Shown here: piece by piece, positions 5,440-20,711 of the stretch
Layout: the number at the start of each line of letters is the position of its first letter
Numbering within the stretch: the first letter of the stretch is position 1
Source of the DNA: Gammaproteobacteria bacterium
GTDB lineage: Bacteria; Pseudomonadota; Gammaproteobacteria; SURF-13
Reading direction: 5' to 3'
NCBI GenBank assembly: GCA_003599485.1
Contig: QZKM01000048.1
Coordinates: 10,428-74,427, forward strand
DNA: 64,000 nucleotides
The notes under the pieces: model-generated
Seen by the model: the letters and a program-made list of their open reading frames with translations, nothing else
Databases searched by the model: none
What the model was told of the DNA's origin: nothing
Position numbers and translations under genes: made by a program

Positions 5440-6376
5440 CCTTGCGCAGCAGCTTTATCAAGTGAGTCATGTCGGCGGGTAGCGGCGCTGACCACTCCAT
5501 CCTCTCGCCCGTTGCTGGATGCGTAAGGGCGAGATGCGCGGCGTGCAGCGCCTGGCGCTTGAAACCGCGCAGCGCCTCGCGCAATTCCATGCTGCACGAC
5601 GGCGGCATACGCAGGCGTCCGCCGTAAACCGGGTCGCCCAGCACGGGGTGCCGGATGTGCGCCATGTGCACCCGTATCTGGTGCGTGCGCCCGGTTTCCA
5701 GCATGATCTTGACGAGGGTGTGGGCGCGGAAACGTTCCTGCACGCGGTAATGGGTGATCGCGCTCTTGCCCTGCCCGCTTTGCGTCACCGCCATGCGCGT
5801 GCGGCTGACGCGGTGCCTGCCCAGCGGCGCCTCGATACATCCGCCCGCGATGATCTCGCCGTTGATCAGGGCGGCGTACTCGCGCTGCACCGTGTGCGCC
5901 TGCAATTGTTTGACCAGTGACTTTTGCGCGCCGAGCGTGCGCGCCACCACCAGCAAACCGCTGGTGTCCTTATCCAGCCTGTGCACGATGCCAGCGCGCG
6001 GAATTTTGCGCAACTGCGGCGCGTAATATAGCAGCGCATTGAGCAACGTGCCCTCCGGGTTGCCCGCGCCGGGATGCGCCACCAGGCCCGGCGGCTTGTT
6101 GATGACGATCAATTCCGCATCTTCGTAGACGATATCGAGCGCGATGGACTGCGCGCGCCACTCGCCCTGCGCCTCGGCCAGCGCGTTTAATTCAATAAGC
6201 TCGCCGCCGCGCACCTTATCGCGCGGACGCCATGTTTTGCCGTCCACCGCCGCCCGGCCGCTGCGTATCCACTGCGCGAGGCGCGAGCGCGAGTAGGCCG
6301 GGAACAGCCGCGCCAGCGCCTGGTCTAAACGCAAACCCACCAACTCCGGCGGAACCTGCGCGGTTAAAGGCTGCAT
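5420..6376 (-). CDS. rluD: 23S rRNA pseudouridine(1911/1915/1917) synthase RluD
   Basis: S4 domain plus catalytic motif HRLDKDTSGLLVVA. Divergent from bamD as in E. coli. Confidence 0.9.
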   Translation of the reverse strand: MQPLTAQVPPELVGLRLDQALARLFPAYSRSRLAQWIRSGRAAVDGKTWRPRDKVRGGELIELNALAEAQGEWRAQSIALDIVYEDAELIVINKPPGLVAHPGAGNPEGTLLNALLYYAPQLRKIPRAGIVHRLDKDTSGLLVVARTLGAQKSLVKQLQAHTVQREYAALINGEIIAGGCIEAPLGRHRVSRTRMAVTQSGQGKSAITHYRVQERFRAHTLVKIMLETGRTHQIRVHMAHIRHPVLGDPVYGGRLRMPPSCSMELREALRGFKRQALHAAHLALTHPATGERMEWSAPLPADMTHLIKLLRKDVREHA

Positions 6377-6432
6377 ACAGGCTGTTTCATGGAAGCAGGC
6401 AGGCGCGGTATACTCTGCCCCTACTATACCCG

Positions 6433-7227
6433 ATGGTTACACTTATCATGCGCGCGGTAAAACCGGCATTCATCCTTCCGTTACTCCTTATTCTGGCAAG
6501 CTGTTCGCTGCTGCCCGAACAGATAGACACCACCAAGAACTGGTCGGCCAGCAAGCTGTACTCGGAGGCCAAGGCCTCCATGAGCAGCGGCGACTATGAA
6601 ACGGCCATCAAGTACTACGAGAAACTGCAAGCGCGTTACCCGTTCGGCCGTTACGCTCAGCAGGCGCAGATTGATCTGATCTACGCCTATTATAGAGACG
6701 ATGAACCCGCCTCCGCCATCGCCGCCGCCGACCGGTTCATCAAGCTGCATCCGCGCCATCCTTACGTGGACTATGCGTACTATTTAAAAGGGCTGGCCAA
6801 CTTCAACGTGAGCAAGGGGCTGTTCGAGCGTTACCTGCCGCAAGACCCGACGCAGCGCGATCCCGGCGCGGCGCGCCAGTCGTTTCAGGATTTCTCGGAA
6901 TTGGCGCGACGCTTTCCCAACAGCAAATACACCCCGGACGCCGTGCAGCGCATGACCTACCTGCGCAACAACCTCGCGCAATATGAAGTCAACGTGGCGA
7001 ATTACTACATGAAGCGCAGCGCCTACGTCGCCGCCGCGAACCGCGCCAAATACGTGGTGGAAAATTACGACCGCAGCCCGGCCGTGCCCGACGCACTCGC
7101 GGTAATGGCCAAGGCCTATAAAATCATGGGGCTGGATGACCTGTCCAGCGACGCCCTGCGCGTACTGGAACTCAACGCCCCCGGCCACCCGGCCATCGCC
7201 GAGGTGAGAAATCTGGTGGTCAAATAA
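6433..7227 (+). CDS. bamD: outer membrane protein assembly factor BamD (YfiO)
   Basis: Lipoprotein signal LILASCS. TPR-like sequence closely parallels E. coli BamD (NWRQA.../YPFGRYAQQAQIDLIYAYY). The track ORF start at 6232 is an upstream artefact. Confidence 0.9.
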   Translation: MVTLIMRAVKPAFILPLLLILASCSLLPEQIDTTKNWSASKLYSEAKASMSSGDYETAIKYYEKLQARYPFGRYAQQAQIDLIYAYYRDDEPASAIAAADRFIKLHPRHPYVDYAYYLKGLANFNVSKGLFERYLPQDPTQRDPGAARQSFQDFSELARRFPNSKYTPDAVQRMTYLRNNLAQYEVNVANYYMKRSAYVAAANRAKYVVENYDRSPAVPDALAVMAKAYKIMGLDDLSSDALRVLELNAPGHPAIAEVRNLVVK

Positions 7228-7247
7228 TACTTTGAGAAAACCAGATA

Positions 7248-8411
7248 TTACCCAAGGTAAATCCGCTTCCATGCATATCCCCAAGGAATACGCTCTTGCT
7301 CCAACCGCACGCGCGGCCCCCAGCGATGATTGCACAAGTCCCGATACAGTCCTTGTTCCACCACAGTAAGCAAGGGCAGTTCAGCACCGACGACGGGCTT
7401 GTCCTCCTGCCCCCATAAACCTTTGTGATCCAATAGTGTTGACTCATCCATGAGTAGCGATTGAGTATGCGGCAAGTGGTGGCGCAGACGATTCAAGATG
7501 GCGAAACCGTGGGTGTCCAAGTCACCCCAGTAGTAGCACGGTAGCTGCTTGAGCCAGGGGATTTCGCCAAACAGGTCCACTGCATAACCAAGCCGCATGA
7601 ATACCGCAGCTTCCGGGACATCTCCGAAGGCAAGCCCGGTTTGCAGGTTTTCAACGATGAAGACACCGCGCAACGGCAAAACCAAGCGCGCGATCTCTTC
7701 CACCGGCGCGGTGATATCTCCCAATCCCCCCGTTATTCGACGCACGTCTGCATGCAGCAGACGAAGACGCATGAGCACGGGTTCGCGACGAATCCCGGTC
7801 GCCTTATGGAAGTCCGCACCATCACCACTATCGCCGCGAATAATAGACAACAGCCCGGCAACTAGGGATTTGCGGGCAGACAACCATTTGGTGTCGACGC
7901 CCGCCACCGGGAGCTGACGGACATACAGACCGGAATTGGGATGCGTTTCCAGCCATTCCAGCATTGCGAACAGGCGATGAAAATCGCCGTCCGGGTAGTC
8001 GGCCAACACATCGAAATATCCGGGCAAGGTTCCGGCAAGACGGGGCCAACGATCCGCCATCAAGGCATGGCGCCGTTCGGCCCTTTGCCACCGATCCGTT
8101 TCCCCTAACCATTCGGCTACTTGTGCCGGGTTATGAAGCAACGCCCGCTCCGGCAGGCTTTGCGTGCCGAGGTTCGGCCAGCGCCGCTCAACCCACACCA
8201 CTTCGCCTTCGCCCCGCCATTCGTGCCAACGCGCTTGCCACGCCTGCACCGCAGGAAGTTGCTCACGGGCCTGCTGTTCGCTCGGCATCCCAAGCGGGAT
8301 CGACAACGGCCAGGACCCGTCACCTTCGAGCCACCGCCGGTGATTGGCGCGGTAGCGTTGCTGCAAACGTTGTTTGACCCCATCGGGGTCAATTAGAAAC
8401 GACTTCGCCAC
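7248..8411 (-). CDS. jetD: Wadjet JetD (DUF3322/DUF2220, Toprim-like nuclease subunit)
   Basis: 387 aa. Toprim-like acidic motifs IVENL and YYWGDLDTHGFAIL. Overlaps the jetC stop. Confidence 0.85.
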   Translation of the reverse strand: MAKSFLIDPDGVKQRLQQRYRANHRRWLEGDGSWPLSIPLGMPSEQQAREQLPAVQAWQARWHEWRGEGEVVWVERRWPNLGTQSLPERALLHNPAQVAEWLGETDRWQRAERRHALMADRWPRLAGTLPGYFDVLADYPDGDFHRLFAMLEWLETHPNSGLYVRQLPVAGVDTKWLSARKSLVAGLLSIIRGDSGDGADFHKATGIRREPVLMRLRLLHADVRRITGGLGDITAPVEEIARLVLPLRGVFIVENLQTGLAFGDVPEAAVFMRLGYAVDLFGEIPWLKQLPCYYWGDLDTHGFAILNRLRHHLPHTQSLLMDESTLLDHKGLWGQEDKPVVGAELPLLTVVEQGLYRDLCNHRWGPRVRLEQERIPWGYAWKRIYLG

Positions 8412-11400
8412 GCATTCTTTCCGGTAGGTTCAGGCGCCGTCTCTGTCGGTCGTATTCGATCTGTAGCGTGGCGGAGCGCTTGCGGTCGCTGATGTCGACA
8501 AAACACGCACCGCCGATGAATGGCTCCAGGGTCATCACGGACTTCAGCGGTGTGGCAACGATCATCTGGAAACCGAAGTTGGTGAAAATTTTCATCGCCA
8601 GTTCGGTGAACTCGTTGTCTGCCTTGCCGAAGGCTTCATCCAGCACGACCGGCGCATACAGCGGCAACCCGCTGTCGCTGCCACCCAACTGGTAGCGCAG
8701 TGCGGCCGCGAGGCAGGTGGTGGCGAGTTTTTCGCGCTGGCCGCCGGACTTTCCCGCACCCGTGCGGTAAATTTCCACCTCCTGGCCGGCCTTGTCGTAT
8801 TCGCGTCCCATGAACTCCACGTGCTGGCGCACATCGAGGACCAGTTCCCGCCAGCGCTGATGCTCGCTTTCCGCCGAACCCAGCCTGTTCACCAGTTCGC
8901 GCAGGATACCAAAACGCGCCTCCGCACCCTCCGCGTCTGTAAGCCATGCGTTGTCCAGCACCTGTTTTACCTGTTCGCGAAATACCCTGACCTCCGGCAG
9001 ATAGCGGTCGTTGACGACAATCTCCAGGTGCGTGCCGTGACCGAACTCTGCCTGGGATAGACTCTCGTTCACTAGGTCCATGCGCTCACGTATCTCCTTG
9101 CGGGCCTTGGCAAGGTGGGTATTGAGCGCCGCCAGGTTCTCCGTACTCTGCTCCTTGAGCATGTCGAAAAAACGCTGCTCGTGCTTCGGCAGCCCATCGT
9201 GCTCCAGCCGCTCCAGCAGGACCATGAAATCCGGCGCCGAGGCCAAGGTCTCGTCCAGATCGCCGGCGTGTTCTCTCCATTCTCCGAGAAAACGGCTGAA
9301 GCATTTCTCGATCACCTGCTTCAAACTGCCCTGCTCGGTTTGCAGGCCTTCGATTTCCTTGCCAATTCCCCGCTCCACCGCGGTTCGTTGGCTTTCCAGA
9401 TTCTTGAGGGTGACCGGCTTGTCAATCGCCTCGAAGCGCGCCTTAAGCGCCTGCTGTTGATAATCAGTGAGCACGGCGGACTGCAGTTGCAGCCGCAACT
9501 CATCCAGTTCGTGACCATACTGATCGATTTGCTTTTTAACAACTATGCGTTCGGCACGCATGGCATTCAAGGCATCTTCAGCTTCCTTGAGCTTTGTCCG
9601 CTGTTGCATGATACGCTCGCCCAATTCCTTCAAAACACGGTTTCCGTCACTGAACTCGGCCAGCATCTTGTCTAGCGCATGAATACGATCCAGCATGCTG
9701 GCTACGTCGATCTCCTGCCATTGCAGATTGGTCAGAGTCTGGCAGGCCATGAGCCGCTCTTCCCGTTTCTCGCGGTCGGCCTCCAGTTGTTCTAGCTCTC
9801 GTCTGACCCGGCCGATCTCATCGGCCAATTGCTGCGCCCGCTCTTGATAAAGTCGCCGCTTTTCGCGGTTGTCGAAACCCAAAACCCACCCATGCGGGTC
9901 ATCGATGGGTCGCCGGTCGTCTTTCTCGTGCCGGGACCTGCCATGACGTACTTGACCTTCGCGCGTGACGGCCCGTTCGGTCTGGCGAAAATCCCTCATG
10001 TTGTCGACACAGGCGTAATCGAAACGGCGCCTGAACTCTGCGTCGAGCCAAGGCCGATAGGCGTTGTCCTTGAACAACAGCTTGTTGACCAGCGACCAAC
10101 TTTGCACCGGTTGCGTTGTGGATGTAATCGTGTCGGCCGCAACCCGGTGGTAAACCAAGCGTTGATTCAGGCGGGTCTCGTTAACGTAACTGGAGACGCC
10201 CGCGTAATGGCGCTCCTCGACGAGGAGCGAGAGCGCGAACCCTCGCAACACCCGCTCCACCGCGCCCTGCCACTCGGCGGCTTCCTTCCTGACCTCAATC
10301 AGTTCGCCGGCAAACGGCAAATCGCTTTCTGGCAAGCCGAGGGCGGTAGTCAGTTGCCGGCGCAGGTCCAGCATGTGGGCCGGAATATTGGAGGGCTGGC
10401 GCTGCATGGCCTCGACTTCCCGGCGCGTCTCGGAAAAACTCTTCTCCGCCTCGCGCTGGCGGACGTTCAGCGCATCGCGCTGCTCATCGGCGCGCCGGTT
10501 TGCCTCTCTGCGGCCCTCCAATATTCCCCGCGCCTCGGCGGCGAGCTCTGCAAACCCCTGTGGTGTATCCGGAAGCGAGCGGCCGAGCGTCTTACAGGCC
10601 GTTTCCGCTTGCCCGCGTTTGGCCATCCGGTCGTCCCGTTGCTGCTCGGCGGATTTCCTGTCCCGTTCCAGCTCCTGGATGCGCACGCCGCCTTGCTCCC
10701 GATGCTCCGCTTCCAGCAGGGCAAGCTGTGTCTTGTTATTGTCCAGCATCTCCTGCTGCCGGCGCTCCTCCCCCTCCAGCCCCTGATCCTGAGTCCGCAG
10801 GCGCTCGATTTCCTCGTCCAGCAGCTTCACCTTGCAACGGTCGCGGTAGGCATCGACACCGGCCCGCAACTCCTCCAGCCGGACCAGTTGCTCGCTATTC
10901 GATAGGAATTTTCGATGGTCGTCCCGCGCCGGACGCAGGGTATTCACCTGCCTGCGGGCCGTCACGACGGCTTGGTGGGCCGCGTCCAGTTCGGCAAATT
11001 CCTTCACCATGCGCTCAGTGACCTCGAAGGTGGGCGGCCGGTCGAGCATGTAGTCGCGAAGAAAGCTGTTAAGGTCACCGAGGTTCTTGGCCGACTGCGT
11101 CTTGTGCAGGAGCTTGAGCGCCATCTCCGACTCGATACCGAGCAGGCGGCGAAAGTGTTCGCCGTAAGCGCTGAACGTTTCGAAGTGGCGCACGTCCGAC
11201 AATTTGTGCTTGAGGTTACGCAGGTCCAAATCGAACTCCTTGAGTTCCGTCGCGATGTTGAAGGAACGCTCCGAAACCATGAAATGGTGCCGCACATCCG
11301 CAGCGCGGCTGGCGCTGCCGCGCAACCAGAGAATCTGCACAAGGCTCGCGCTCTGGCCAGCAAGGTTGGCGTACTCGACCGCCAGCGCCGACCAGGTAGT

Positions 11401-11730
11401 GCCTGTCCGCAGGTATTGCGAAGCGATCTCGCCGGAATCGTTGTCCGTTTGATCCGCCCAAGCACCGCGTATATAGGATACCCAGTGCCGATCATGACGC
11501 CCCTTCTCGCCCTCTCGCGCCGCGGCGTTGAACACCAACCATTGAGGCGGCGCGAGCAACGCGGACAGGGCATCGAGCACCGTGGATTTCCCGGAGCCCG
11601 AGCGCCCCACAAACAGGAAGCCTTCTTCGGTGATGGGAATATCGTGCAAACCGGAGAAGGTTCCCCAGTTGAATACCTGCAGGCGGCGCATCCGATATTG
11701 CTGCGCCGGCCACAGTCCCTGCATCAGCAT
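8389..11730 (-). CDS. jetC: Wadjet JetC (MksB-like SMC-family ATPase)
   Basis: About 1110 aa. N-terminal Walker A GRSGSGKST, very long E/R/Q/L-rich coiled coil, C-terminal Walker B VVLDEAFGKAD. Probable start is the ATG at 11730, immediately after the jetB stop; the track ORF extends to 11811. Confidence 0.85.
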   Translation of the reverse strand: MLMQGLWPAQQYRMRRLQVFNWGTFSGLHDIPITEEGFLFVGRSGSGKSTVLDALSALLAPPQWLVFNAAAREGEKGRHDRHWVSYIRGAWADQTDNDSGEIASQYLRTGTTWSALAVEYANLAGQSASLVQILWLRGSASRAADVRHHFMVSERSFNIATELKEFDLDLRNLKHKLSDVRHFETFSAYGEHFRRLLGIESEMALKLLHKTQSAKNLGDLNSFLRDYMLDRPPTFEVTERMVKEFAELDAAHQAVVTARRQVNTLRPARDDHRKFLSNSEQLVRLEELRAGVDAYRDRCKVKLLDEEIERLRTQDQGLEGEERRQQEMLDNNKTQLALLEAEHREQGGVRIQELERDRKSAEQQRDDRMAKRGQAETACKTLGRSLPDTPQGFAELAAEARGILEGRREANRRADEQRDALNVRQREAEKSFSETRREVEAMQRQPSNIPAHMLDLRRQLTTALGLPESDLPFAGELIEVRKEAAEWQGAVERVLRGFALSLLVEERHYAGVSSYVNETRLNQRLVYHRVAADTITSTTQPVQSWSLVNKLLFKDNAYRPWLDAEFRRRFDYACVDNMRDFRQTERAVTREGQVRHGRSRHEKDDRRPIDDPHGWVLGFDNREKRRLYQERAQQLADEIGRVRRELEQLEADREKREERLMACQTLTNLQWQEIDVASMLDRIHALDKMLAEFSDGNRVLKELGERIMQQRTKLKEAEDALNAMRAERIVVKKQIDQYGHELDELRLQLQSAVLTDYQQQALKARFEAIDKPVTLKNLESQRTAVERGIGKEIEGLQTEQGSLKQVIEKCFSRFLGEWREHAGDLDETLASAPDFMVLLERLEHDGLPKHEQRFFDMLKEQSTENLAALNTHLAKARKEIRERMDLVNESLSQAEFGHGTHLEIVVNDRYLPEVRVFREQVKQVLDNAWLTDAEGAEARFGILRELVNRLGSAESEHQRWRELVLDVRQHVEFMGREYDKAGQEVEIYRTGAGKSGGQREKLATTCLAAALRYQLGGSDSGLPLYAPVVLDEAFGKADNEFTELAMKIFTNFGFQMIVATPLKSVMTLEPFIGGACFVDISDRKRSATLQIEYDRQRRRLNLPERMRGEVVSN

Positions 11731-11731
11731 C

Positions 11732-12400
11732 TCATCCTGTCGCATCAGCGGGATCCTCGGGTGACTCGTCGCGGAGCGCGGCGTACTGCCGGCTGAGCGC
11801 AGCAATCTCATCGGCGCTGAACAGCAGTTTCAGAGTGGGGGATATCTCATAACGATCTTCACTGGCTCGGATCGGGCTGATGATGCTGTGGTCCTTCACT
11901 TTCTCGATGGCCGCCCGGATGCGTTTTTCGAACCCGGCCCGATCGGCATTCTCGCGCGGTTCATACAGCTTCATCTGCTCCACCATCTCCGAACCCGAAA
12001 CCACGGCCCGCTCCCCTCGGGCCGCCGCCTCCGTGAGTAATTGACGGAGATAGAGAAGCAGAACCGACTGGATAAAGGTCAACGGCGCGCGCCGCAATAA
12101 GATCGGCGTATCCAGCTCGCCCGTATCCGCCTGGCGCGTGAATGCCACTTCAAGATCGTCGTCCAGCACCAATTCCAGGAACAGTTCGGCGAGGCGCGCG
12201 CGGATCATTGCTTCGTGCCGCCGTAACGCCGGCCACAGCTTGCCATGACGCTTGCTGTCGAGCGACGGACCCGCAAGCAGTTGCACCAAGACACGGCGCG
12301 CCTCTTCCGGGAGCTGGCCAGTGTCGCCAGGATAAAGCCCTGGGTCCTGCAACCCCTCGCTCACGCTATTCGGGATCTCGGTCCTTTCATCGTGATTCAT
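11732..12400 (-). CDS. jetB: Wadjet JetB (MksE-like, DUF4194-type)
   Basis: 222-aa acidic protein between the kleisin-like and SMC-like genes. Overlaps jetA by 14 nt. Confidence 0.75.
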   Translation of the reverse strand: MNHDERTEIPNSVSEGLQDPGLYPGDTGQLPEEARRVLVQLLAGPSLDSKRHGKLWPALRRHEAMIRARLAELFLELVLDDDLEVAFTRQADTGELDTPILLRRAPLTFIQSVLLLYLRQLLTEAAARGERAVVSGSEMVEQMKLYEPRENADRAGFEKRIRAAIEKVKDHSIISPIRASEDRYEISPTLKLLFSADEIAALSRQYAALRDESPEDPADATG

Positions 12401-13847
12401 CGAGGCATCCTTTCACGAAATAGACACATGGAATATGAGCCCGGCGCTCCACGCCGTCGAGCCCCGTCCAATGCACCGTTTCCTTGCGCTGGGCCAGCAC
12501 GCCGTGGCGCGAACCCAGTGCCATGTAACCGACGACGCTGCCAAGGCCCTGCTCGGCGGGATGCGCGTCCAGTATCTCCGCGATGGATACTTGATCGCGT
12601 TCTTCGAGCAGGGCCTGCACGTGTCCTTTCAGGCCCCGAAAATCGATTTCCGAGTGTGCAACCAATTCACTCACCGCCTCCAGAGATATTTCCGCCGCTT
12701 CGGCGAGCGGGATACCGGCATCCACCCGGTCGAGGCTCGGATCGTGCGGGCGAAACTGGGACAGCGAACCAAGCTTGCTACTGGTGAGATGCAATGTGTG
12801 CCCGATTTCGTCCGTGGGTTTGACGCGGTCCTTGATTTCGACAGCGAGACGCTGGGCCTCCTTGAGCAACTGGTTCAGGCGGCGCTGCTCCATGTATTCA
12901 CGGCTCTGCACGAACTGCTTCAGGCTACGCGCAAAATATTGCAGGGCATCATGCACGTCGCCACCGCGTTCCAGCAGCAGTTTGGTCATGCCGGACAGGA
13001 ACCGCCGCTCCTGGCGATCCAGCGTTCGCGCGAATTCCCTCGACAACAATCGCTCCAAGGCCTCCTCCAACTCCATGCTCTGCTGGGGGTCGGTGAGCAA
13101 GCGCCAGAAGGCCTTGAAGGTACGCCCGGCGTCGCTCGCGGCGATCACGTCCACTCCGGTAAACAGTTCTTCCAGCACTTCACCCCGGGCGCCTTCGCTT
13201 TCCACGATCCGCTCGCGCAACTGGCGATTGAGCTGGTGGAACTGGTCGCGCACCTGCCGAAAGTCGTTGGCCAACTCATCCGCAAGTGCAACGATTTCCC
13301 GCGCGCGCTCCAGAGCCCTGTCCGCCGGCAAGGCTTCGACTCGCCCCGCGCGAACGGCATCGATCTCGGCATCGAGGCGCGCCCGTTCCCGGATCAGTTT
13401 CTCGACGCGCGACTCTGGATCGGTTTCGGTCTGCTCGGCCAACTGTACCAATTGCTGAATCACCAAGGACAGTCGGCTTTCCGTGGCAACCGTGCGCTTC
13501 TGGCCCAGACTCTCGACAAAGCGAATGGCCTGGATAGCCGAGGCACTGAGTTCGTAAACCTCCTCGCTCGCCCCGGCTTGGTACGAACGTTCGAGATACC
13601 CGTCCGCCAACCACTGGCTCAGGTAAGCCTGCGCGGATTGCGGTAGCTCCCAGTCTTCCGCGCGCAGCGAATCCAAATCCCGTCCGATGCGCTCGCTCAG
13701 AATCGAGCTGGGGAGACGACGCTCTCCCTCGAACAAGTGGCTCCGCAAGAGACCAATGACAACCGGCGCGTTATCCGCCGCCAACAGTCGCCACGCCGTT
13801 TTGTTGCGTAGACGTTGGTTGCTTGCGACTTGATGAGCTGACTTCAT
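12387..13847 (-). CDS. jetA: Wadjet JetA (MksF-like kleisin, DUF3375-type)
   Basis: 486 aa, first gene of the four-gene co-directional operon with overlapping ends. Size and position match JetA. Confidence 0.75.
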   Translation of the reverse strand: MKSAHQVASNQRLRNKTAWRLLAADNAPVVIGLLRSHLFEGERRLPSSILSERIGRDLDSLRAEDWELPQSAQAYLSQWLADGYLERSYQAGASEEVYELSASAIQAIRFVESLGQKRTVATESRLSLVIQQLVQLAEQTETDPESRVEKLIRERARLDAEIDAVRAGRVEALPADRALERAREIVALADELANDFRQVRDQFHQLNRQLRERIVESEGARGEVLEELFTGVDVIAASDAGRTFKAFWRLLTDPQQSMELEEALERLLSREFARTLDRQERRFLSGMTKLLLERGGDVHDALQYFARSLKQFVQSREYMEQRRLNQLLKEAQRLAVEIKDRVKPTDEIGHTLHLTSSKLGSLSQFRPHDPSLDRVDAGIPLAEAAEISLEAVSELVAHSEIDFRGLKGHVQALLEERDQVSIAEILDAHPAEQGLGSVVGYMALGSRHGVLAQRKETVHWTGLDGVERRAHIPCVYFVKGCLDESR

Positions 13848-14082
13848 TAACGGCCACCCAAACCCTCAGGAGACAACTGTTCAGGCGCGCATCCACTTCG
13901 GAAGAATTTGAGCGTGCGCGTAAACATTTCCGCGTAAACGGCCTTCTCCTCATTCGAGGCTGTCCCCAGCACCCCGGCCTAATCAAGTGCCGTTTCCCAA
14001 TTCTGGCGGAAACTGGCGCACCTTTTTCGAGGTAGAGTCATAGCCCATATCTTCGACAAAGTTGTATCCGCCTATTCCGGAT

Positions 14083-14445
<363 letters not shown>

Positions 14446-14502
14446 TCACACCCTCTCCCCTGCCCAAACCCTTCACTTCGATTTTCCCTGAAGGGAGGGG
14501 GC

Positions 14503-16128
14503 TTAGCTATCTCTCCCGCCCCACGTAATAGGATAACGCCGATCGCGGCCAAAGGCACGCGGGGTGATGCGCACACCGGGTGCGGCCTGGCGGCGTTTGT
14601 ATTCGTTGCGGTCCACCATGCGGATCACGCGCCGCACGGTTTGTTCGTCGAAGCCCGCGGCGATAATGTCCTCCGGCCGTTTGTCTTGTTCGACATACAG
14701 CTTGAGTATGGGATCGAGCACGGAATAAGGCGGCAGCGCATCGGTGTCTTTTTGGCCGGGCGCGAGTTCCGCCGTGGGCGCGCGCTCAAACACGCGCCGT
14801 GGAATCACCGGCTGGATGCGATTGCGGTATTCCGCGAGGCGGTACACGAGCAGCTTGGGCACGTCCTTGAGCGGCGCGAAACCGCCCGCCATGTCGCCGT
14901 ACAGCGTGGCGTAGCCCACCGACATCTCGCTCTTGTTGCCGGTGGAGAGCACGATGTTGCGTTTTTTATTGGCGATGGCCATGAGTACCACACCGCGGCA
15001 GCGCGCCTGGATATTTTCTTCCGTGACATCGGCGGGCAGTCCGGCGAATTCCTGTTTCAGACTGTCCAAAAATGCCTGAAAAGAAGGCTCAATGGAGATC
15101 AGGCTGTGTTTCACACCGAGGGCCTCGGCCACTGCCTTGCCGTCCTCAATACTGATGGGGGCGGTGTAGCGCGAGGGCATGAGCACCGCCTCGACACGTT
15201 CGGCGCCCAGGGCGTCCACGGCGACGGCCAGGGTCAAGGCGGAATCTATACCGCCGGAAACGCCGATCACCACGCCGTTGAAACCGTTTTTGTTCACATA
15301 ATCGCGCACGCCCAGCACCAGTGCTTGATACGCGCTTTGCTCCTCGCTTAACGGCGCGCGGCGCTCGCCCGGCTGCACAACGACGTTACCGTTCACCTGC
15401 AAATCCAATGGGAACAGGCCTTCGGCAAAGGCCGGTGCGCGCAGCATGAGTTGGCCCTCAGCGTCCACCGCGAGCGATTCACCGTCGAACACCAGTTCGT
15501 CCTGCCCGCCCACGAGATTGACGTAGACGATGGGCATCTCGCCCTGTTGCGCACGTTGCCTGAGCAACGCCACGCGTTCTTCGCCCTTGGCAAGGTGAAA
15601 CGGCGAGGCGTTGATGTTGATGAGCAGCCGTGCGCCGGCCTCGCGCGCCTGCCGTATCGGCCCCGGCATCCAGATGTCCTCGCAAATGCTGAGCGCCGTG
15701 GGCACACCCTCGATATCCACCACGCAGGCCCGATCGCCCGCGACAAAATAGCGCTTTTCGTCAAACACGCCGTAATTCGGCAGATGCTGTTTGAAGTAAC
15801 GCGCAAGGATGACGTCATCGCACAACAACGCGGCGGCATTATAGAGACGATGGTCTTCTTGATGCGGATAGCCGAACACTGCGGCGATGCCATTTATCCC
15901 GCGCTTCAACTCCTCGATGCCTTCCCGCACCTGCGCGTGCAGGTCAGGGCGCAGCAGCAAGTCCTCCGGCGGATAGCCGGTGAGCGCGAGTTCGGGAAAC
16001 ACAGCCACGTCGGCGCGCAGTTCGTCGCGCGCTTGATGCGCCGCGGCGATGATCTTGCACACATTACCGCGCACGTCGCCCACGCATAGATTGAGCTGGG
16101 CGGCGGCGATGCGTAAACGCGTGCTCAT
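14503..16128 (-). CDS. nadE: glutamine-dependent NAD+ synthetase
   Basis: 541 aa: N-terminal CN-hydrolase domain plus C-terminal NAD synthetase with P-loop SGGIDSAL. Start overlaps the sucD stop. Confidence 0.9.
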
Positions 16129-17021
16129 CGCGAGGCGGATTTTTTCGCGCGCTGCATCAGCGCGGCCATGGCCTCCCCCATCCCGGCGGGCGAGCGCGCG
16201 ACCACCACGCCCGCCGCCTCCAGCGCGGCGATTTTGTGCGCCGCCGTACCCGCGCCGCCGGAGATGATCGCGCCCGCGTGCCCCATGCGTTTGCCGGGCG
16301 GCGCAGTTTGTCCCGCGATGTAGGCGGCCACGGGCTTGCGCACGTGCGTCTTGATATAGCCGGCGGCGGCCTCTTCCGCCGTGCCGCCGATCTCACCGAC
16401 CAGAATGATGCCCTCGGTCTCTGGGTCTTGCTCGAACAACTCCAGGCAGTCAATGAAATTCATGCCCTGGATCGGGTCGCCGCCGATGCCGACGCAGGTG
16501 CTTTGCCCCAGGCCGTTTTGCGTGGTCTGGTGCACCGCCTCATAAGTCAGCGTGCCGGAGCGCGACACAATGCCAATGCGGCCGGGCTTGTGGATCGCGC
16601 CCGGCATAATGCCGATCTTGCATTCACCGGGCGTGATGACGCCGGGACAGTTCGGGCCGATGAGCCTCACGGCGGGATAATTTTTCAGCGCGGCCTTGAT
16701 GTTCAACATGTCAAGCACCGGTATGCCTTCGGTGATGCATACGATGACCTTGATACCCGCGTCCGCCGCTTCCAGTATCGCGTCCATCGCAAACGGCGCG
16801 GGCACGTAAATCATGCTCGCATCCGCACCGGTCTCTTGCACCGCCGCGCGCACGGTATTGAACACCGGCAGGCCGAGATGCATCTCCCCGTCCTTGCCCG
16901 GCGTCACACCGCCGACCATGTTCGTACCATAGGCGATGGCCTGCTCGGAGTGAAACGTGCCCTGTTTGCCTGTGAAGCCTTGGCAAATGACACGGGTGTT
17001 TTTATTGACGAGGATGCTCAT
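16125..17021 (-). CDS. sucD: succinyl-CoA synthetase alpha subunit
   Basis: CoA-binding and phospho-His region ([10 protein letters not shown]). The ATG overlaps the stop of the upstream methyltransferase (ATGA). Confidence 0.95.
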
Positions 17022-18589
17022 GATCGCTTGCTGACCTTGTATCTTGCACGCTCTTCACGAAGAGTAAATTCCAGTTGTGTTTCCCTCAATGGGGCCGCTA
17101 AACCGGCCTCACGCAGAGCGCGCTCCGACAGCGGCAGCCGTTCCAGTGCACGCGGCTCAACCTTCACTGCACCTCCACCATACGACTTTCCGACCAACAC
17201 AATATTGGCAACCGTATCCGGATGATTGAGCAATGCCCATAGGCGCTCAACAAAATTCGGCGCATCCGACAACGGGTAGACACACAAAAAGCCGGTAAGC
17301 GGAACGACTCCTGCACGGTTACGAATAAAGCGGGCATTGCGCCGTCCAAGATAGGCGAACAGGAATGGTGGAATAGCCCGCGTCTCCATCTTATACCACG
17401 GCTTGCGCGTCTTGATGAGCGGCTTATCAGGTAACCCAAGCCGCTCCCCACGCTTTAGATAGCGTCGCACGGACCAAGGGAACCGAGAGGGTAAGTTCCC
17501 ATTGGGGGAAAATAAAAAGGTAGGCCGTTGCTGAGCTTCAAGCCTGCGGAGATCGGCGTGAGTTAATTCGTCACCTGCAACATCTCTTGTCCGGCCAATT
17601 GCGGGGACAAGGAATTCTTTTTGCAGGCCAAGCGCCGTCACTCGTTCAGCAGTCAAAAAGAAATACTCATTAGCGCCAGTCGCAATCCCTCGCATCACTC
17701 TTGCGAAATCGGCGAGCACCGCAGGATGAGTCATAACTTGCGGTGGCCGGGATAATCCAGTAGCTATCCCTTCACAAACAAGCCGCCGCTGGACTGAGAG
17801 TGTGCCAGCCTCGACGGTCTTGAACCCGGATAGCACCCAAGCCCGCAACGCCAAGTTGTCCGGCTGGGTAACACGCGCCCAATGAAACTCCGCTCCGGGT
17901 GGAGCATTCTCAATCATGATGATGACAGGATTCGTATCGACACCGGGGAAAGGTGTAGCCATGTGATCAAACGTGATGACCGCATCGAGCCGGTAGTGCC
18001 TGGTAATCCATTGCCACAAGGTCCCGGCAAAAACCCCTTCGCAGGTGTCGGCAGGCACAATGAATGCCAGCCGACCACCCTGTTCAAGAAGCTGAAGGGC
18101 ACGCAGCAAGAAATGGATGTGGTAGCCCGCACGCGCATCGATAGCCACGCCAGTAAGCCGCATGCTAAATATCTTAAGCCTGGATTTAACATCTGCGGAC
18201 AAGCGGTGATGGCGGATATACGGTGGGTTTGCAACGATGGCCTTCAGCTTCGTGCGAGGCGGATCAAGCACAAAGTCGCGGACCTCGACGCCTGAAAGAT
18301 CGCGTGATTTGAGGCCTGATGTTTTTGCCTTATCCAAAATCGATTTATCAACTTCCGCGCCCTGCAAGCGCACACGAACATTTGCCAACTCCGCTACAGC
18401 CAGTGCAGCCCGGAAAAACGCCCCCATCCCCACCGCTGGATCGAAAATAGTACGATGCCCTCCGGCTATCGGGTAAGCAGCCATCGCCTGCGCTACCCAA
18501 GCGGGTGTCCAAAATTGGCCACTTTGCCGTAATTTCTCGCGCTCAGGCCCAGATGCCGGTAGTTTCTGTACAGCTTGCTCCGCCATCAT
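17018..18589 (-). CDS. type II N6-adenine DNA methyltransferase (gamma class, Eco57I/TaqI-like)
   Basis: Motif [12 protein letters not shown], motif [10 protein letters not shown], motif IV NPPY ([11 protein letters not shown]). C-terminal target-recognition region. Lower GC than flanks. Confidence 0.85.
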
Positions 18590-19542
18590 TTACGTTCCTT
18601 TGCGATACTGTTGAGCCTACTCAAAACATCATGGCTAAGCTCCAAACTTCCGCCCTCGAACCTTACGTAGGGGAGAATGTGGCCATTCTTGTCAGTAATG
18701 CAAGCCGGTAAAAGCCTGGGCTCCTGCTTCGCGGCTCCGAGTGGATAGGCATAGTGATAATAAAACTTGTAGATCGACTTGCGTGTGGTAGCCCCACCCG
18801 GAGCTTGAAATACCTGCTCTGTCGGCAGAATCAGTTTGCTACGAATCAATCGCTCAGCCTCATCGAATGCCAGACCGAAGGCAAGATCGTAAAACACATG
18901 CCAGACGTGAATCTTTATGCCAGTAGACTGTTGCCATTTGCGCAAAGGTTGCCGGTCTTCATCCTTAATAATCACAGTCGGCACTACCGCAGTCTTCTTT
19001 AGGCCCGGTTTGCCATTTAAGCGCCGCTGCGGACTCAACTCAGCGCCAAAGCCCGGCATTTGTGCGGCACGCCACAAGCTATTTTCACACTCAACTGCAA
19101 TAACACTTTCGGCGAGGATGGTCCGCATGCACCGGTCGGACTCCGCGGTGAATGGCAGCTCCGATATGCCGCCTATTTCCTTAACAAGGCGCTCAACAAC
19201 TGGTTGACTCGATTTCCGGAAAATCAGCAAATCCGGACGTTTGATCTTACCAAGCCCAGCTTTGTCCAGACGTTCAAAATAGAGTTCAAAGGCTCGCACA
19301 TCATCGTCAGGAGCCGTCCCGCTGGGCCCATAGGGCAATGCAAAGAATTCTCCAGCATTACTGATGGCCTCAATGATGCGATGCTCGCTCCATACGCCTT
19401 GTGACCATCTCATCAAAAAATCGCTGCCACGCAGGCGTCGAGGATTAAGCAGAAACTCGTGCCACCCGATATGACCCAGTGCCGACAATTCGAACGCAAT
19501 ATCCTCACTTGAGACACTAAGAATTTTCTCGAATGAGTGCAT
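18586..19542 (-). CDS. putative type II restriction endonuclease (partner of adjacent methyltransferase; PstI/BsuBI-like size)
   Basis: About 318 aa from the ATG at 19542 (RBS GGGGA), 15 nt after the sucC stop. Its stop overlaps the MTase start (ATGA). About 50% GC. No family recognised by eye. Confidence 0.5.
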   Translation of the reverse strand: MHSFEKILSVSSEDIAFELSALGHIGWHEFLLNPRRLRGSDFLMRWSQGVWSEHRIIEAISNAGEFFALPYGPSGTAPDDDVRAFELYFERLDKAGLGKIKRPDLLIFRKSSQPVVERLVKEIGGISELPFTAESDRCMRTILAESVIAVECENSLWRAAQMPGFGAELSPQRRLNGKPGLKKTAVVPTVIIKDEDRQPLRKWQQSTGIKIHVWHVFYDLAFGLAFDEAERLIRSKLILPTEQVFQAPGGATTRKSIYKFYYHYAYPLGAAKQEPRLLPACITDKNGHILPYVRFEGGSLELSHDVLSRLNSIAKERK

Positions 19543-19556
19543 TTGAAATCCCCGGC

Positions 19557-20711
19557 TCAAGCGTGACCTGCCGCGGCGACTGCCTTTACAGCCGCATCGG
19601 TAAGATCGTTCGCAGTGATGATTTTGAGTTTGCTGGCGCGTAATAATTCGCACGCCTCCGGCGCACGGTTGCCTTCGAGGCGCACCACCACCGGCAGTTT
19701 GATGCCGACTTCGGATACCGCCTTGATGATGCCTTCGGCGATCAAATCACAGCGCACGATGCCGCCGAAGATGTTGACCAAAATCGCCTTCACTTTTTTA
19801 TCGGACAAAATCAGCTTGAAGGCTTCGGCCACTTTTTCCGCCGTGGTGCCGCCGCCGACGTCGAGAAAGTTGGCCGGTTCGCCGCCGTGCAGTTTGATCA
19901 AGTCCATGGTCGCCATGGCGAGTCCGGCGCCGTTCACCATGCAGGCGATGTTGCCGGAGAGGGTGATGTAGTTGAGACCGAACTGGCGCGCGGCGGCCTC
20001 GCGTTCGTCTTCCTGGGTCGCGTCGCGCAGCGCGGCGAGGTCGGGGTGGCGGTACAACGCGTTGTCATCCAGTGCGATCTTGGCGTCCAGCGCAATCAGT
20101 TCGCCGCCGCGGGTGATAATCAACGGGTTGACCTCGATCAGGCTGGCGTCCTGGTCCACAAACACACGGTACAGCGCGCGCGCAAGCTGGGTGAAGGCGG
20201 CGATCTGTTTATCGGCCAGACCCAGCGCAAAGGCGAGTTCGCGACACTGGTAAGGCTGCAAGCCCGCCAGCGGGTCCGCGTGCAGCGTTTGTAGTTGATG
20301 CGGGTGAGTTTCGATCTCCACCCCGCCGCTGCCGGACGCCAGGACCTGCACCCGCTCACGCGCCCGGTCCACGGTGAGCGCAAGATACAGCTCGCGCGCG
20401 ATTTCGCTCGGGCGGTCCACCAGCACCGTGGAGACAGGGAGGCCCTGGGCGCCGGTTTGCGCGGTGACGAGACGCGAGCCGAGCAGCCTGCTCACGGCGG
20501 TTTCCAGTTCATCCAGACCGCGCACGCGCTGCACGCCGCCCGCCTTGCCACGCGCCCCCGCGTGCACCTGCGCTTTGACGACCCACTCTTCTCCGCCGAG
20601 GGCGCGCGCCGCATCCCGCGCCTGCTGCACGCTGCGCGCCACCACGCCCTGGGGCACGGGCACGCCGTATCCCTTTAATAGTTGCTTCGCCTGGAATTCG
20701 TGGAGGTTCAT
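19557..20711 (-). CDS. sucC: succinyl-CoA synthetase beta subunit
   Basis: ATP-grasp N-terminus MNLHEFQAKQLL...; full-length 384 aa. Confidence 0.95.
   Translation of the reverse strand: MNLHEFQAKQLLKGYGVPVPQGVVARSVQQARDAARALGGEEWVVKAQVHAGARGKAGGVQRVRGLDELETAVSRLLGSRLVTAQTGAQGLPVSTVLVDRPSEIARELYLALTVDRARERVQVLASGSGGVEIETHPHQLQTLHADPLAGLQPYQCRELAFALGLADKQIAAFTQLARALYRVFVDQDASLIEVNPLIITRGGELIALDAKIALDDNALYRHPDLAALRDATQEDEREAAARQFGLNYITLSGNIACMVNGAGLAMATMDLIKLHGGEPANFLDVGGGTTAEKVAEAFKLILSDKKVKAILVNIFGGIVRCDLIAEGIIKAVSEVGIKLPVVVRLEGNRAPEACELLRASKLKIITANDLTDAAVKAVAAAGHA

What the first reader, a model, noticed from the sequence alone, without database searches (positions are those of the whole stretch)
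7248..13847. Complete type I Wadjet (JetABCD) anti-plasmid operon as a lower-GC island between bamD and glnB
Four co-directional genes on the minus strand have overlapping ends and the sizes and features of JetA (486 aa), JetB (222 aa), JetC and JetD. JetC is about 1110 aa, with N-terminal Walker A GRSGSGKST, a very long coiled coil and C-terminal Walker B VVLDEAFGKAD. JetD is 387 aa, with Toprim-like acidic residues in IVENL and GDLDTHG. The block sits between two conserved core genes (bamD, glnB), and its GC content is visibly lower than that of the flanks. Wadjet is a described condensin-like defence system that restricts circular plasmid DNA. All catalytic motifs look intact, so it is probably functional.
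Basis: partly seen in the sequence, partly recalled or inferred. Interest (0 to 1): 0.6.

Follow-up and report, generated by a model that had tools for sequence, protein, structure and literature searches.

The report
Ordinary type I Wadjet anti-plasmid operon
This is an intact but typical four-gene Wadjet (JetABCD) system, a condensin-like machine that cuts small circular plasmids, which was inserted between two housekeeping genes of an uncultured gammaproteobacterium; it is a routine new example of a well-studied defence system.

Summary
They are jetA (12387-13847), jetB (11732-12400), jetC (8389-11745; the ORF runs to 11811) and jetD (7248-8411). Their ends overlap by 14, 14 and 23 nt.

All four match the type I Wadjet profiles over their full length, in both Pfam and PADLOC. 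The quoted motifs are present. JetD E254 aligns with the catalytic E248 of the solved E. coli JetD.

dN/dS against a 93 %-identical copy elsewhere is 0.13-0.18, so the genes are under purifying selection.

The island claim holds, but not for the reason given:
- **Composition:** the GC dip is trivial (60.4 % vs 62.3 %). GC3 is host-like.
- **Synteny:** none of 80 related bamD loci carries jet. In 15 of the 20 relatives that have bamD next to glnB, the two genes lie 13-163 bp apart. The closest relative has a transposase and transporter genes at that site.
- **Mobility:** the same cassette sits between unrelated genes on another contig.

No integrase, tRNA or flanking repeat marks the insertion. 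The visibly low-GC island in this region is a type II restriction-modification pair that splits sucC from sucD (17018-19653).

Verdict: a new member of a known kind. Interest is low.

The parts
12387..13847 (-). jetA, 486 aa, the kleisin subunit (DUF3375)
   Evidence: Pfam PF11855 at 528 bits over 12-477. PADLOC JetA1 PDLC00460, E 6e-193. PDB JetA 8dk1/8as8, E 1e-26. 1632 homologues found, the closest 95 % identical.
11732..12400 (-). jetB, 222 aa, the KITE subunit (DUF4194, MksE-like)
   Evidence: Pfam PF13835 at 158 bits and MksE at 36 bits. PADLOC JetB1 PDLC00501, E 8e-92. No PDB hit by phmmer.
8389..11745 (-). jetC, 1118 aa from the ATG at 11745 (maximal ORF to 11811, 1140 aa). SMC/MukB-like ABC ATPase with Walker A 47-55, signature SGGQ 1000-1003 and Walker B/D-loop 1033-1043
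   Evidence: PADLOC JetC1 PDLC00518 at 1385 bits over the full length. Pfam AAA_29 plus SbcC_Walker_B. PDB JetC 8dk2, E 3.6e-79, and 8as8, E 4.5e-77, nearly end to end. Motif positions. Start site.
7248..8411 (-). jetD, 387 aa, nuclease subunit. N-terminal DUF3322 (arm/CAP) and C-terminal JetD_C (Toprim) with E254 and D297/D299
   Evidence: Pfam PF11795 at 174 bits plus PF09983 at 162 bits. PADLOC JetD1 PDLC00530, E 6e-137. PDB MksG 8b7f, E 8.6e-31. In JetD(E248A) 8q72, query E254 aligns with position 248 and GDLDTHG aligns with GDMDSWG.
13848..13957 (-). 110-bp leader that travels with the cassette; presumed promoter and 5'UTR
   Evidence: Nucleotide homology to L081 (93 % over the operon) starts at 13957 and stops at about 7258. 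The sequence beyond is unrelated. No sigma-70 consensus was found.
13958..14082 (-). 125-bp spacer between the glnB stop and the cassette. It is not part of the mobile block and has no convincing terminator
   Evidence: Not shared with L081 and not alignable with relatives. Fold z-score -0.62. No terminator-like site.
6232..7227 (+). bamD, the left host flank, convergent with jetD with a 20-bp gap
   Evidence: NCBIfam TIGR03302 at 293 bits. The spacer after the stop codon resembles that of L001.
14083..14421 (-). glnB (P-II), the right host flank, co-directional with and upstream of jetA
   Evidence: NCBIfam PRK10858 at 194.9 bits, full length, just under its 202-bit cutoff. PF00543 on the source contig.

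Best explanation
The block is a complete type I Wadjet (JetABCD, also called MksBEFG) operon. It was acquired horizontally and sits in the short convergent gap between bamD and glnB of an uncultured gammaproteobacterium.

Shown here:
- The four-gene content and order.
- Full-length membership of each protein in the type I families.
- Intact ATPase motifs in JetC (K53 Walker A, SGGQ signature, D1036/E1037 Walker B).
- An intact Toprim acidic set in JetD (E254, D297, D299).
- Purifying selection on all four genes.
- The insertion itself.

Inferred from work on the E. coli GF4-3, P. aeruginosa PA14 and C. glutamicum systems:
- JetA (kleisin), JetB (KITE) and JetC (SMC) form a dimer of two motor units that loads on DNA and extrudes loops using ATP.
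- On a small closed circle (below about 50-100 kb) extrusion runs to completion and the motors stall against each other.
- That state recruits and activates the JetD dimer, which bends and cleaves the remaining DNA.
- The chromosome is spared because it is too large to be fully extruded.

Expression probably starts in the 110-bp leader that moves with the cassette. Read-through from glnB cannot be excluded, because no terminator separates the two.
For: Gene identity:
- Pfam and PADLOC give full-length hits for all four proteins, and the best models are the type I (Jet*1) ones.
- JetC aligns over residues 33-1099 with P. aeruginosa JetC (8dk2, E 3.6e-79) and over 31-1106 with E. coli JetC (8as8).
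- JetA matches solved JetA at E 1e-26.
- JetD matches MksG 8b7f at E 8.6e-31. Its E254 aligns with the E248A position of 8q72, the cleavage-deficient mutant described in bioRxiv 10.1101/2023.11.03.565488.

Selection: dN/dS against the L081 copy is 0.127, 0.137, 0.180 and 0.154 for jetA, jetB, jetC and jetD.

Operon architecture: overlaps of 14, 14 and 23 nt.

Insertion:
- 0 of 80 related bamD loci have jet. Gaps between bamD and glnB are 13-163 bp in 15 of 20 relatives.
- The same cassette, 93 % identical in nucleotides, lies between an HTH_3 gene and a DUF3050 gene in L081.
- Homologues 77-83 % identical lie next to toxin-antitoxin and methylase genes elsewhere.

Mechanism: from the review PMC10586767 and the preprint 10.1101/2023.11.03.565488.
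Against: - No activity data exist for this locus.
- The consensus scans found no promoter or terminator, so expression is unproven.
- JetB has no detectable match to solved JetB by phmmer, although the family profiles match strongly.
- Composition is nearly host-like. The transfer is therefore either old or from a donor of similar GC.
- No mobility gene, tRNA or flanking repeat explains how the cassette arrived.
Confidence: 0.92

Rival explanations
1. The complex is a chromosome-organising MksBEF-type condensin with a housekeeping role, not a defence system.
For: JetB also matches Pfam MksE. JetABC are structurally close to MukBEF (PMC10586767).
Against: A full-length JetD/MksG nuclease gene with an intact Toprim triad is translationally overlapped with jetC. 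The locus is absent from all 80 related genomes sampled, which does not fit a core chromosome function.
Confidence: 0.03
2. The operon is an inactive relic: it is still readable but no longer expressed or functional.
For: No promoter-like or terminator-like site was found. The JetD C-terminal tail is 4-5 residues shorter than in its closest homologues, and the homology breakpoint lies in its last codons.
Against: There are no frameshifts or internal stops. All catalytic motifs are intact. dN/dS is 0.13-0.18 in all four genes. The Pfam JetD_C match covers 178 of 179 profile positions, and the missing tail is variable among homologues.
Confidence: 0.05
3. The locus is ancestral at this site and was lost in relatives, so it is not an acquired island.
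For: GC and GC3 are close to host values. No mobility signature is present.
Against: Fifteen of 20 relatives with bamD-glnB adjacency have only 13-163 bp between the genes. The others carry unrelated cargo: a nitroreductase-like gene in L002 and L003, and an IS plus transporters in L001. A cassette 93 % identical has different neighbours in L081, with sharp homology breakpoints.
Confidence: 0.06

Closest known systems
E. coli GF4-3 JetABCD (type I Wadjet; PDB 8as8, 8bfn, 8q72)
   Same: It has the same four subunits in the same order. JetC aligns nearly end to end (E 4.5e-77) and JetA at E 1.5e-26. JetD E254 corresponds to the catalytic E248, and the GDxD motif is conserved.
   Different: The sequences are distant: JetD matches only at E 1.8e-11, and JetB is not detectable by phmmer. 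The host is an uncultured environmental gammaproteobacterium. No biochemistry exists for this locus.
P. aeruginosa PA14 JetABCD (PDB 8dk1-3, 7til)
   Same: It gives the best JetC and JetA matches among solved structures (E 3.6e-79 and 1e-26). The operon logic is the same.
   Different: JetD is only weakly similar (E 6.7e-9). The IFDR motif reported at the JetB N-terminus (PMC10586767) is not evident in this JetB N-terminus (MNHDERTEIPNSV...).
Corynebacterium glutamicum MksBEFG (MksG, PDB 8b7f; PMC10123090)
   Same: MksG is the closest solved relative of this JetD (E 8.6e-31 over residues 15-330). It is the nuclease that executes plasmid defence.
   Different: The host is an actinobacterium. 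The other subunits were not compared because no solved structures of them were returned.
MukBEF / MksBEF chromosome condensins
   Same: They share the SMC-kleisin-KITE architecture, and there is a weak MksE profile match.
   Different: They have no JetD/MksG nuclease and they are core genes. This locus has the nuclease and is accessory.
Type II and type III Wadjet
   Same: They share the overall JetABCD concept.
   Different: PADLOC type II and III models match only marginally (JetC2 E 1.9e-6, JetD3 E 8e-4), whereas type I models reach 1e-92 to 0.

Membership tests
Type I Wadjet (JetABCD) | Four co-directional genes in the order jetA-jetB-jetC-jetD, forming one operon | tested here: met
   All four are on the minus strand with overlaps of 14, 14 and 23 nt.
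Type I Wadjet (JetABCD) | JetA is a DUF3375 kleisin | tested here: met
   PF11855 at 528 bits, profile positions 2-474 of 474. PADLOC JetA1, E 6e-193. PDB JetA, E 1e-26.
Type I Wadjet (JetABCD) | JetB is a DUF4194 KITE/MukE-like protein | tested here: met
   PF13835 at 158 bits, profile positions 1-165 of 165. PADLOC JetB1, E 8e-92.
Type I Wadjet (JetABCD) | JetC is an SMC/MukB-like ABC ATPase with Walker A, signature and Walker B motifs split by a long coiled coil and hinge | tested here: met
   PADLOC JetC1 at 1385 bits over profile positions 10-1110 of 1112. End-to-end alignment with solved JetC. Motifs at 47-55, 1000-1003 and 1033-1043, with charged, helix-favouring composition in between. 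The coiled coil itself was not modelled.
Type I Wadjet (JetABCD) | JetD has DUF3322 (arm/CAP) plus DUF2220/JetD_C (Toprim) with a catalytic Glu and DxD | tested here: met
   PF11795 at 174 bits plus PF09983 at 162 bits. E254 aligns with E248 of E. coli JetD, and D297-x-D299 is conserved.
Type I Wadjet (JetABCD) | ATP-dependent cleavage or restriction of small circular DNA | not testable with these tools
   This needs a transformation assay or in vitro reconstitution.
Genomic (defence) island | Absent from the orthologous site in related genomes | tested here: met
   0 of 80 related bamD loci carry jet. bamD and glnB are 13-163 bp apart in 15 of 20 relatives.
Genomic (defence) island | Composition deviates from the host | tested here: not met
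   60.4 % vs 62.3 % GC, with 18 % of equal-sized windows as low. GC3 is 0.64-0.74 against a median of 0.74.
Genomic (defence) island | Mobility signature: integrase or transposase, tRNA, or flanking direct repeats | tested here: not met
   No tRNA in the window. No flanking repeats beyond chance. There is no room for another gene between the flanks.

The most novel reading that the evidence does not exclude
The string sucC-sucD-nadE-glnB | bamD may be a recurrent landing zone. On this reading, defence cassettes without mobility genes insert precisely, from leader to stop codon, and co-oriented with the housekeeping genes.

Supporting observations:
- Wadjet sits after glnB, and an R-M pair sits between sucC and sucD with the methylase stop overlapping the sucD start.
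- Different cargo occupies the bamD|glnB gap in sister lineages.

This would point to a recombination-based cassette exchange that uses host transcription, rather than a classical mobile element.
Probability: 0.2. Interest if true: 0.35.

Novelty: new member of a known kind. Interest (0 to 1): 0.12.

Why it matters
The locus adds one more intact type I Wadjet to a family already found in roughly 5-10 % of bacterial genomes (PMC10586767). For anyone trying to culture or transform this lineage, it predicts poor uptake of small circular plasmids. Together with the adjacent R-M system, it names two concrete barriers to remove. It opens no new mechanistic question. The only mildly interesting point is that the cassette moved without any recognisable mobility signature into a very short convergent intergenic gap.

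Tried and rejected
- Flanking repeats: a search over 6900-14500 found only short, chance-level matches.
- tRNA scan of the whole window found none.
- Promoter and terminator consensus scan found no promoter, and terminator-like sites were below the shuffled expectation.
- Folding of the glnB-jetA spacer gave z = -0.62, so no terminator hairpin.
- A direct repeat, GTTTACGCG twice in the jetA leader, looked like an operator. It is conserved only in the near-identical L081 copy and not in homologues 77-83 % identical, so it was dropped.
- An exact-sequence look-up of JetD found nothing on record. NadE identified the source contig instead.
- JetA against the plasmid collection found only relatives of 53 % identity or less, mostly on megaplasmids or chromids. 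No plasmid vector for this cassette is evident.
- JetB against solved structures gave no hit.
- GC as an island signal was rejected as uninformative.

Full report
**1. The observation**

The ORF list shows four minus-strand ORFs exactly at the stated coordinates:

| Gene | Coordinates | Length |
|---|---|---|
| jetA | 12387-13847 | 486 aa |
| jetB | 11732-12400 | 222 aa |
| jetC | 8389-11811 | 1140 aa, maximal ORF |
| jetD | 7248-8411 | 387 aa, GTG start |

jetA/jetB overlap by 14 nt and jetC/jetD by 23 nt.

The jetC ORF can start at several in-frame ATGs. The ATG at 11745 has a GAGGA 8 nt upstream and overlaps jetB by 14 nt. It gives 1118 aa, the length called for this gene on the source contig and for its orthologue in L081. 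Profile and structure alignments begin at residues 31-41 of the 1140-aa ORF.

The quoted motifs are all present (JetC numbered on the 1118-aa form):
- JetC: GRSGSGKST at 47-55, an SGGQ signature at 1000-1003, and VVLDEAFGKAD at 1033-1043.
- JetD: IVENL at 252-256 and GDLDTHG at 296-302.

**2. Identity**

Pfam:
- JetA: DUF3375 at 528 bits.
- JetB: DUF4194 at 158 bits, plus MksE.
- JetC: AAA_29 plus SbcC_Walker_B.
- JetD: DUF3322 at 174 bits plus JetD_C at 162 bits.

PADLOC assigns all four, full length, to the type I models: JetA1 E 6e-193, JetB1 E 8e-92, JetC1 at 1385 bits, JetD1 E 6e-137. Type II and III models score only marginally.

Against solved structures:
- JetC aligns nearly end to end with P. 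aeruginosa JetC (8dk2, E 3.6e-79) and E. coli JetC (8as8, E 4.5e-77).
- JetA matches solved JetA at E 1e-26.
- JetD matches C. glutamicum MksG (8b7f, E 8.6e-31), E. coli JetD (8q72) and P. aeruginosa JetD (7til).
- In the 8q72 alignment, the alanine of the E248A cleavage-deficient mutant lines up with E254 of this protein, and GDMDSWG lines up with GDLDTHG.
- JetB has no phmmer match in the PDB. That reflects divergence, not absence of the family.

NCBIfam has no models for these families.

**3. Is it maintained?**

A contig from a public sequencing run (L081) carries the same operon at 93 % nucleotide identity. Nei-Gojobori estimates between the two copies give dN/dS of 0.127 (jetA), 0.137 (jetB), 0.180 (jetC) and 0.154 (jetD). 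That indicates clear purifying selection on all four genes.

JetD residues E254, D297 and D299, and most of the Toprim region, are invariant among four homologues 71-96 % identical. Only the last few C-terminal residues vary.

**4. Flanks and source**

The neighbours are pgeF and rluD (minus strand), bamD (plus strand, convergent with jetD, 20-bp gap), then on the other side glnB, nadE and sucD, all on the minus strand.

An exact NadE look-up shows the window corresponds to JGI metagenome 3300007352, contig Ga0104756_1000206 (77 kb), with the same neighbours. The best has BamD 91 % identical.

**5. Island or not?**

Composition does not show it. The block is 60.4 % GC against 62.3 % for the rest of the window, and 18 % of equal-sized windows are as low or lower. 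GC3 of jetA, jetB and jetC (0.71-0.74) sits at the window median of 0.74. Only jetD (0.64) is somewhat low.

Synteny does show it. I fetched 80 bamD loci from related species with 10-kb flanks and mapped all neighbours by tblastn:
- No locus has any jet gene.
- Twenty loci have glnB after bamD. In 15 of them the two genes are 13-163 bp apart.
- L002 and L003 hold a small nitroreductase-like gene in the gap.
- The closest relative, L001, has 5.4 kb there with a DDE_3 transposase, TerC-CBS-CorC and CNNM-CBS-CorC proteins and an EamA transporter.

The bamD|glnB gap is therefore a variable site, and Wadjet is one of several cargoes.

The cassette itself has sharp limits. Homology to L081 begins 110 bp upstream of the jetA ATG (13957) and ends within the last codons of jetD (about 7258). 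Beyond these points L081 has an HTH_3 gene and a DUF3050 gene instead of glnB and bamD.

Homologues 77-83 % identical lie in yet other contexts. These are next to PIN/DUF433 or HEPN/nucleotidyltransferase toxin-antitoxin pairs and a DNA methylase, or between Calvin-cycle genes.

No tRNA, integrase or meaningful flanking repeat was found. No close relative occurs on a sequenced plasmid (53 % identity at best).

**6. Mechanism**

Everything about how the system works is inferred from the characterised type I systems (PMC10586767; bioRxiv 10.1101/2022.10.04.510915 and 10.1101/2023.11.03.565488; PMC10123090):
- JetABC forms a dimer of SMC motor units that extrudes DNA using ATP.
- Circles below about 50-100 kb are fully extruded.
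- The resulting stalled state positions a JetD dimer, which kinks and cleaves the DNA.
- Linear and very large molecules escape.

The residues this chemistry needs are intact here.

Expression is unresolved. No sigma-70 consensus or terminator was found, and the glnB-jetA spacer has no significant structure. Either the 110-bp leader holds a non-consensus promoter, or the operon is read through from glnB.

**7. Comparison and novelty**

This is a textbook type I Wadjet. Every sequence-level defining feature was tested and met, and only the activity is untestable here. It is a new, uncharacterised member of a known kind, from an uncultured host. Nothing in its anatomy departs from the described systems.

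**8. In passing**

The conspicuous low-GC stretch near this locus is at 17018-19653. It holds a methyltransferase (N6_Mtase/Eco57I-like) and an AccI-like restriction endonuclease, inserted between sucC and sucD. The block is 53.6 % GC, with GC3 of 0.53-0.54 against 0.79-0.81 for sucC and sucD. The two host genes are adjacent in the other relatives, while L001 shares the methylase at the same position.

Noticed in passing
window 17018-19653 (minus strand): A type II restriction-modification pair is inserted between sucC (19557-20711) and sucD (16125-17021). It comprises an Eco57I/N6_Mtase-like methylase and an AccI-like endonuclease. The block is 53.6 % GC, with GC3 of 0.53-0.54 against 0.79-0.81 for the flanking genes. 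The methylase stop overlaps the sucD ATG by 4 nt. sucC and sucD are adjacent in most relatives, but the closest relative L001 has the methylase (72 % aa identity) at the same place. This, not Wadjet, is the visibly low-GC island.
   Followed up: partly
L001 10998-16389: The closest relative carries different cargo in the same bamD|glnB gap. It has a DDE_3 transposase, a TerC-CBS-CorC protein, a CNNM-CBS-CorC protein and an EamA transporter, at 66-73 % GC. L002 and L003 carry a 173-aa nitroreductase-like gene there.
   Followed up: partly
window 14083-20711 (minus strand): sucC, the R-M pair, sucD, nadE, glnB and jetABCD are all co-directional. There are 4-nt overlaps at methylase/sucD and at sucD/nadE, and no detectable terminator before jetA. 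Both defence insertions are oriented with the housekeeping genes.
   Followed up: no
window 6232-7227 (plus strand): The maximal bamD ORF (331 aa) overlaps rluD by 145 nt. The BamD profile match starts at residue 79, and BamD ORFs in relatives are 259-264 aa, so the true start is probably internal.
   Followed up: no
window 13900-13935 (minus strand): A direct repeat, GTTTACGCG twice with starts 15 nt apart, lies in the jetA leader. It is conserved in the 93 %-identical L081 copy but not in more distant jet loci. Its significance is unknown.
   Followed up: partly
L088 15461-16942: In the Candidatus Muproteobacteria contig with JetA 77 % identical, jetA, jetB and jetC are called. No gene is called in the 1.5 kb where jetD should be. 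This may be a missed or degraded jetD.
   Followed up: no
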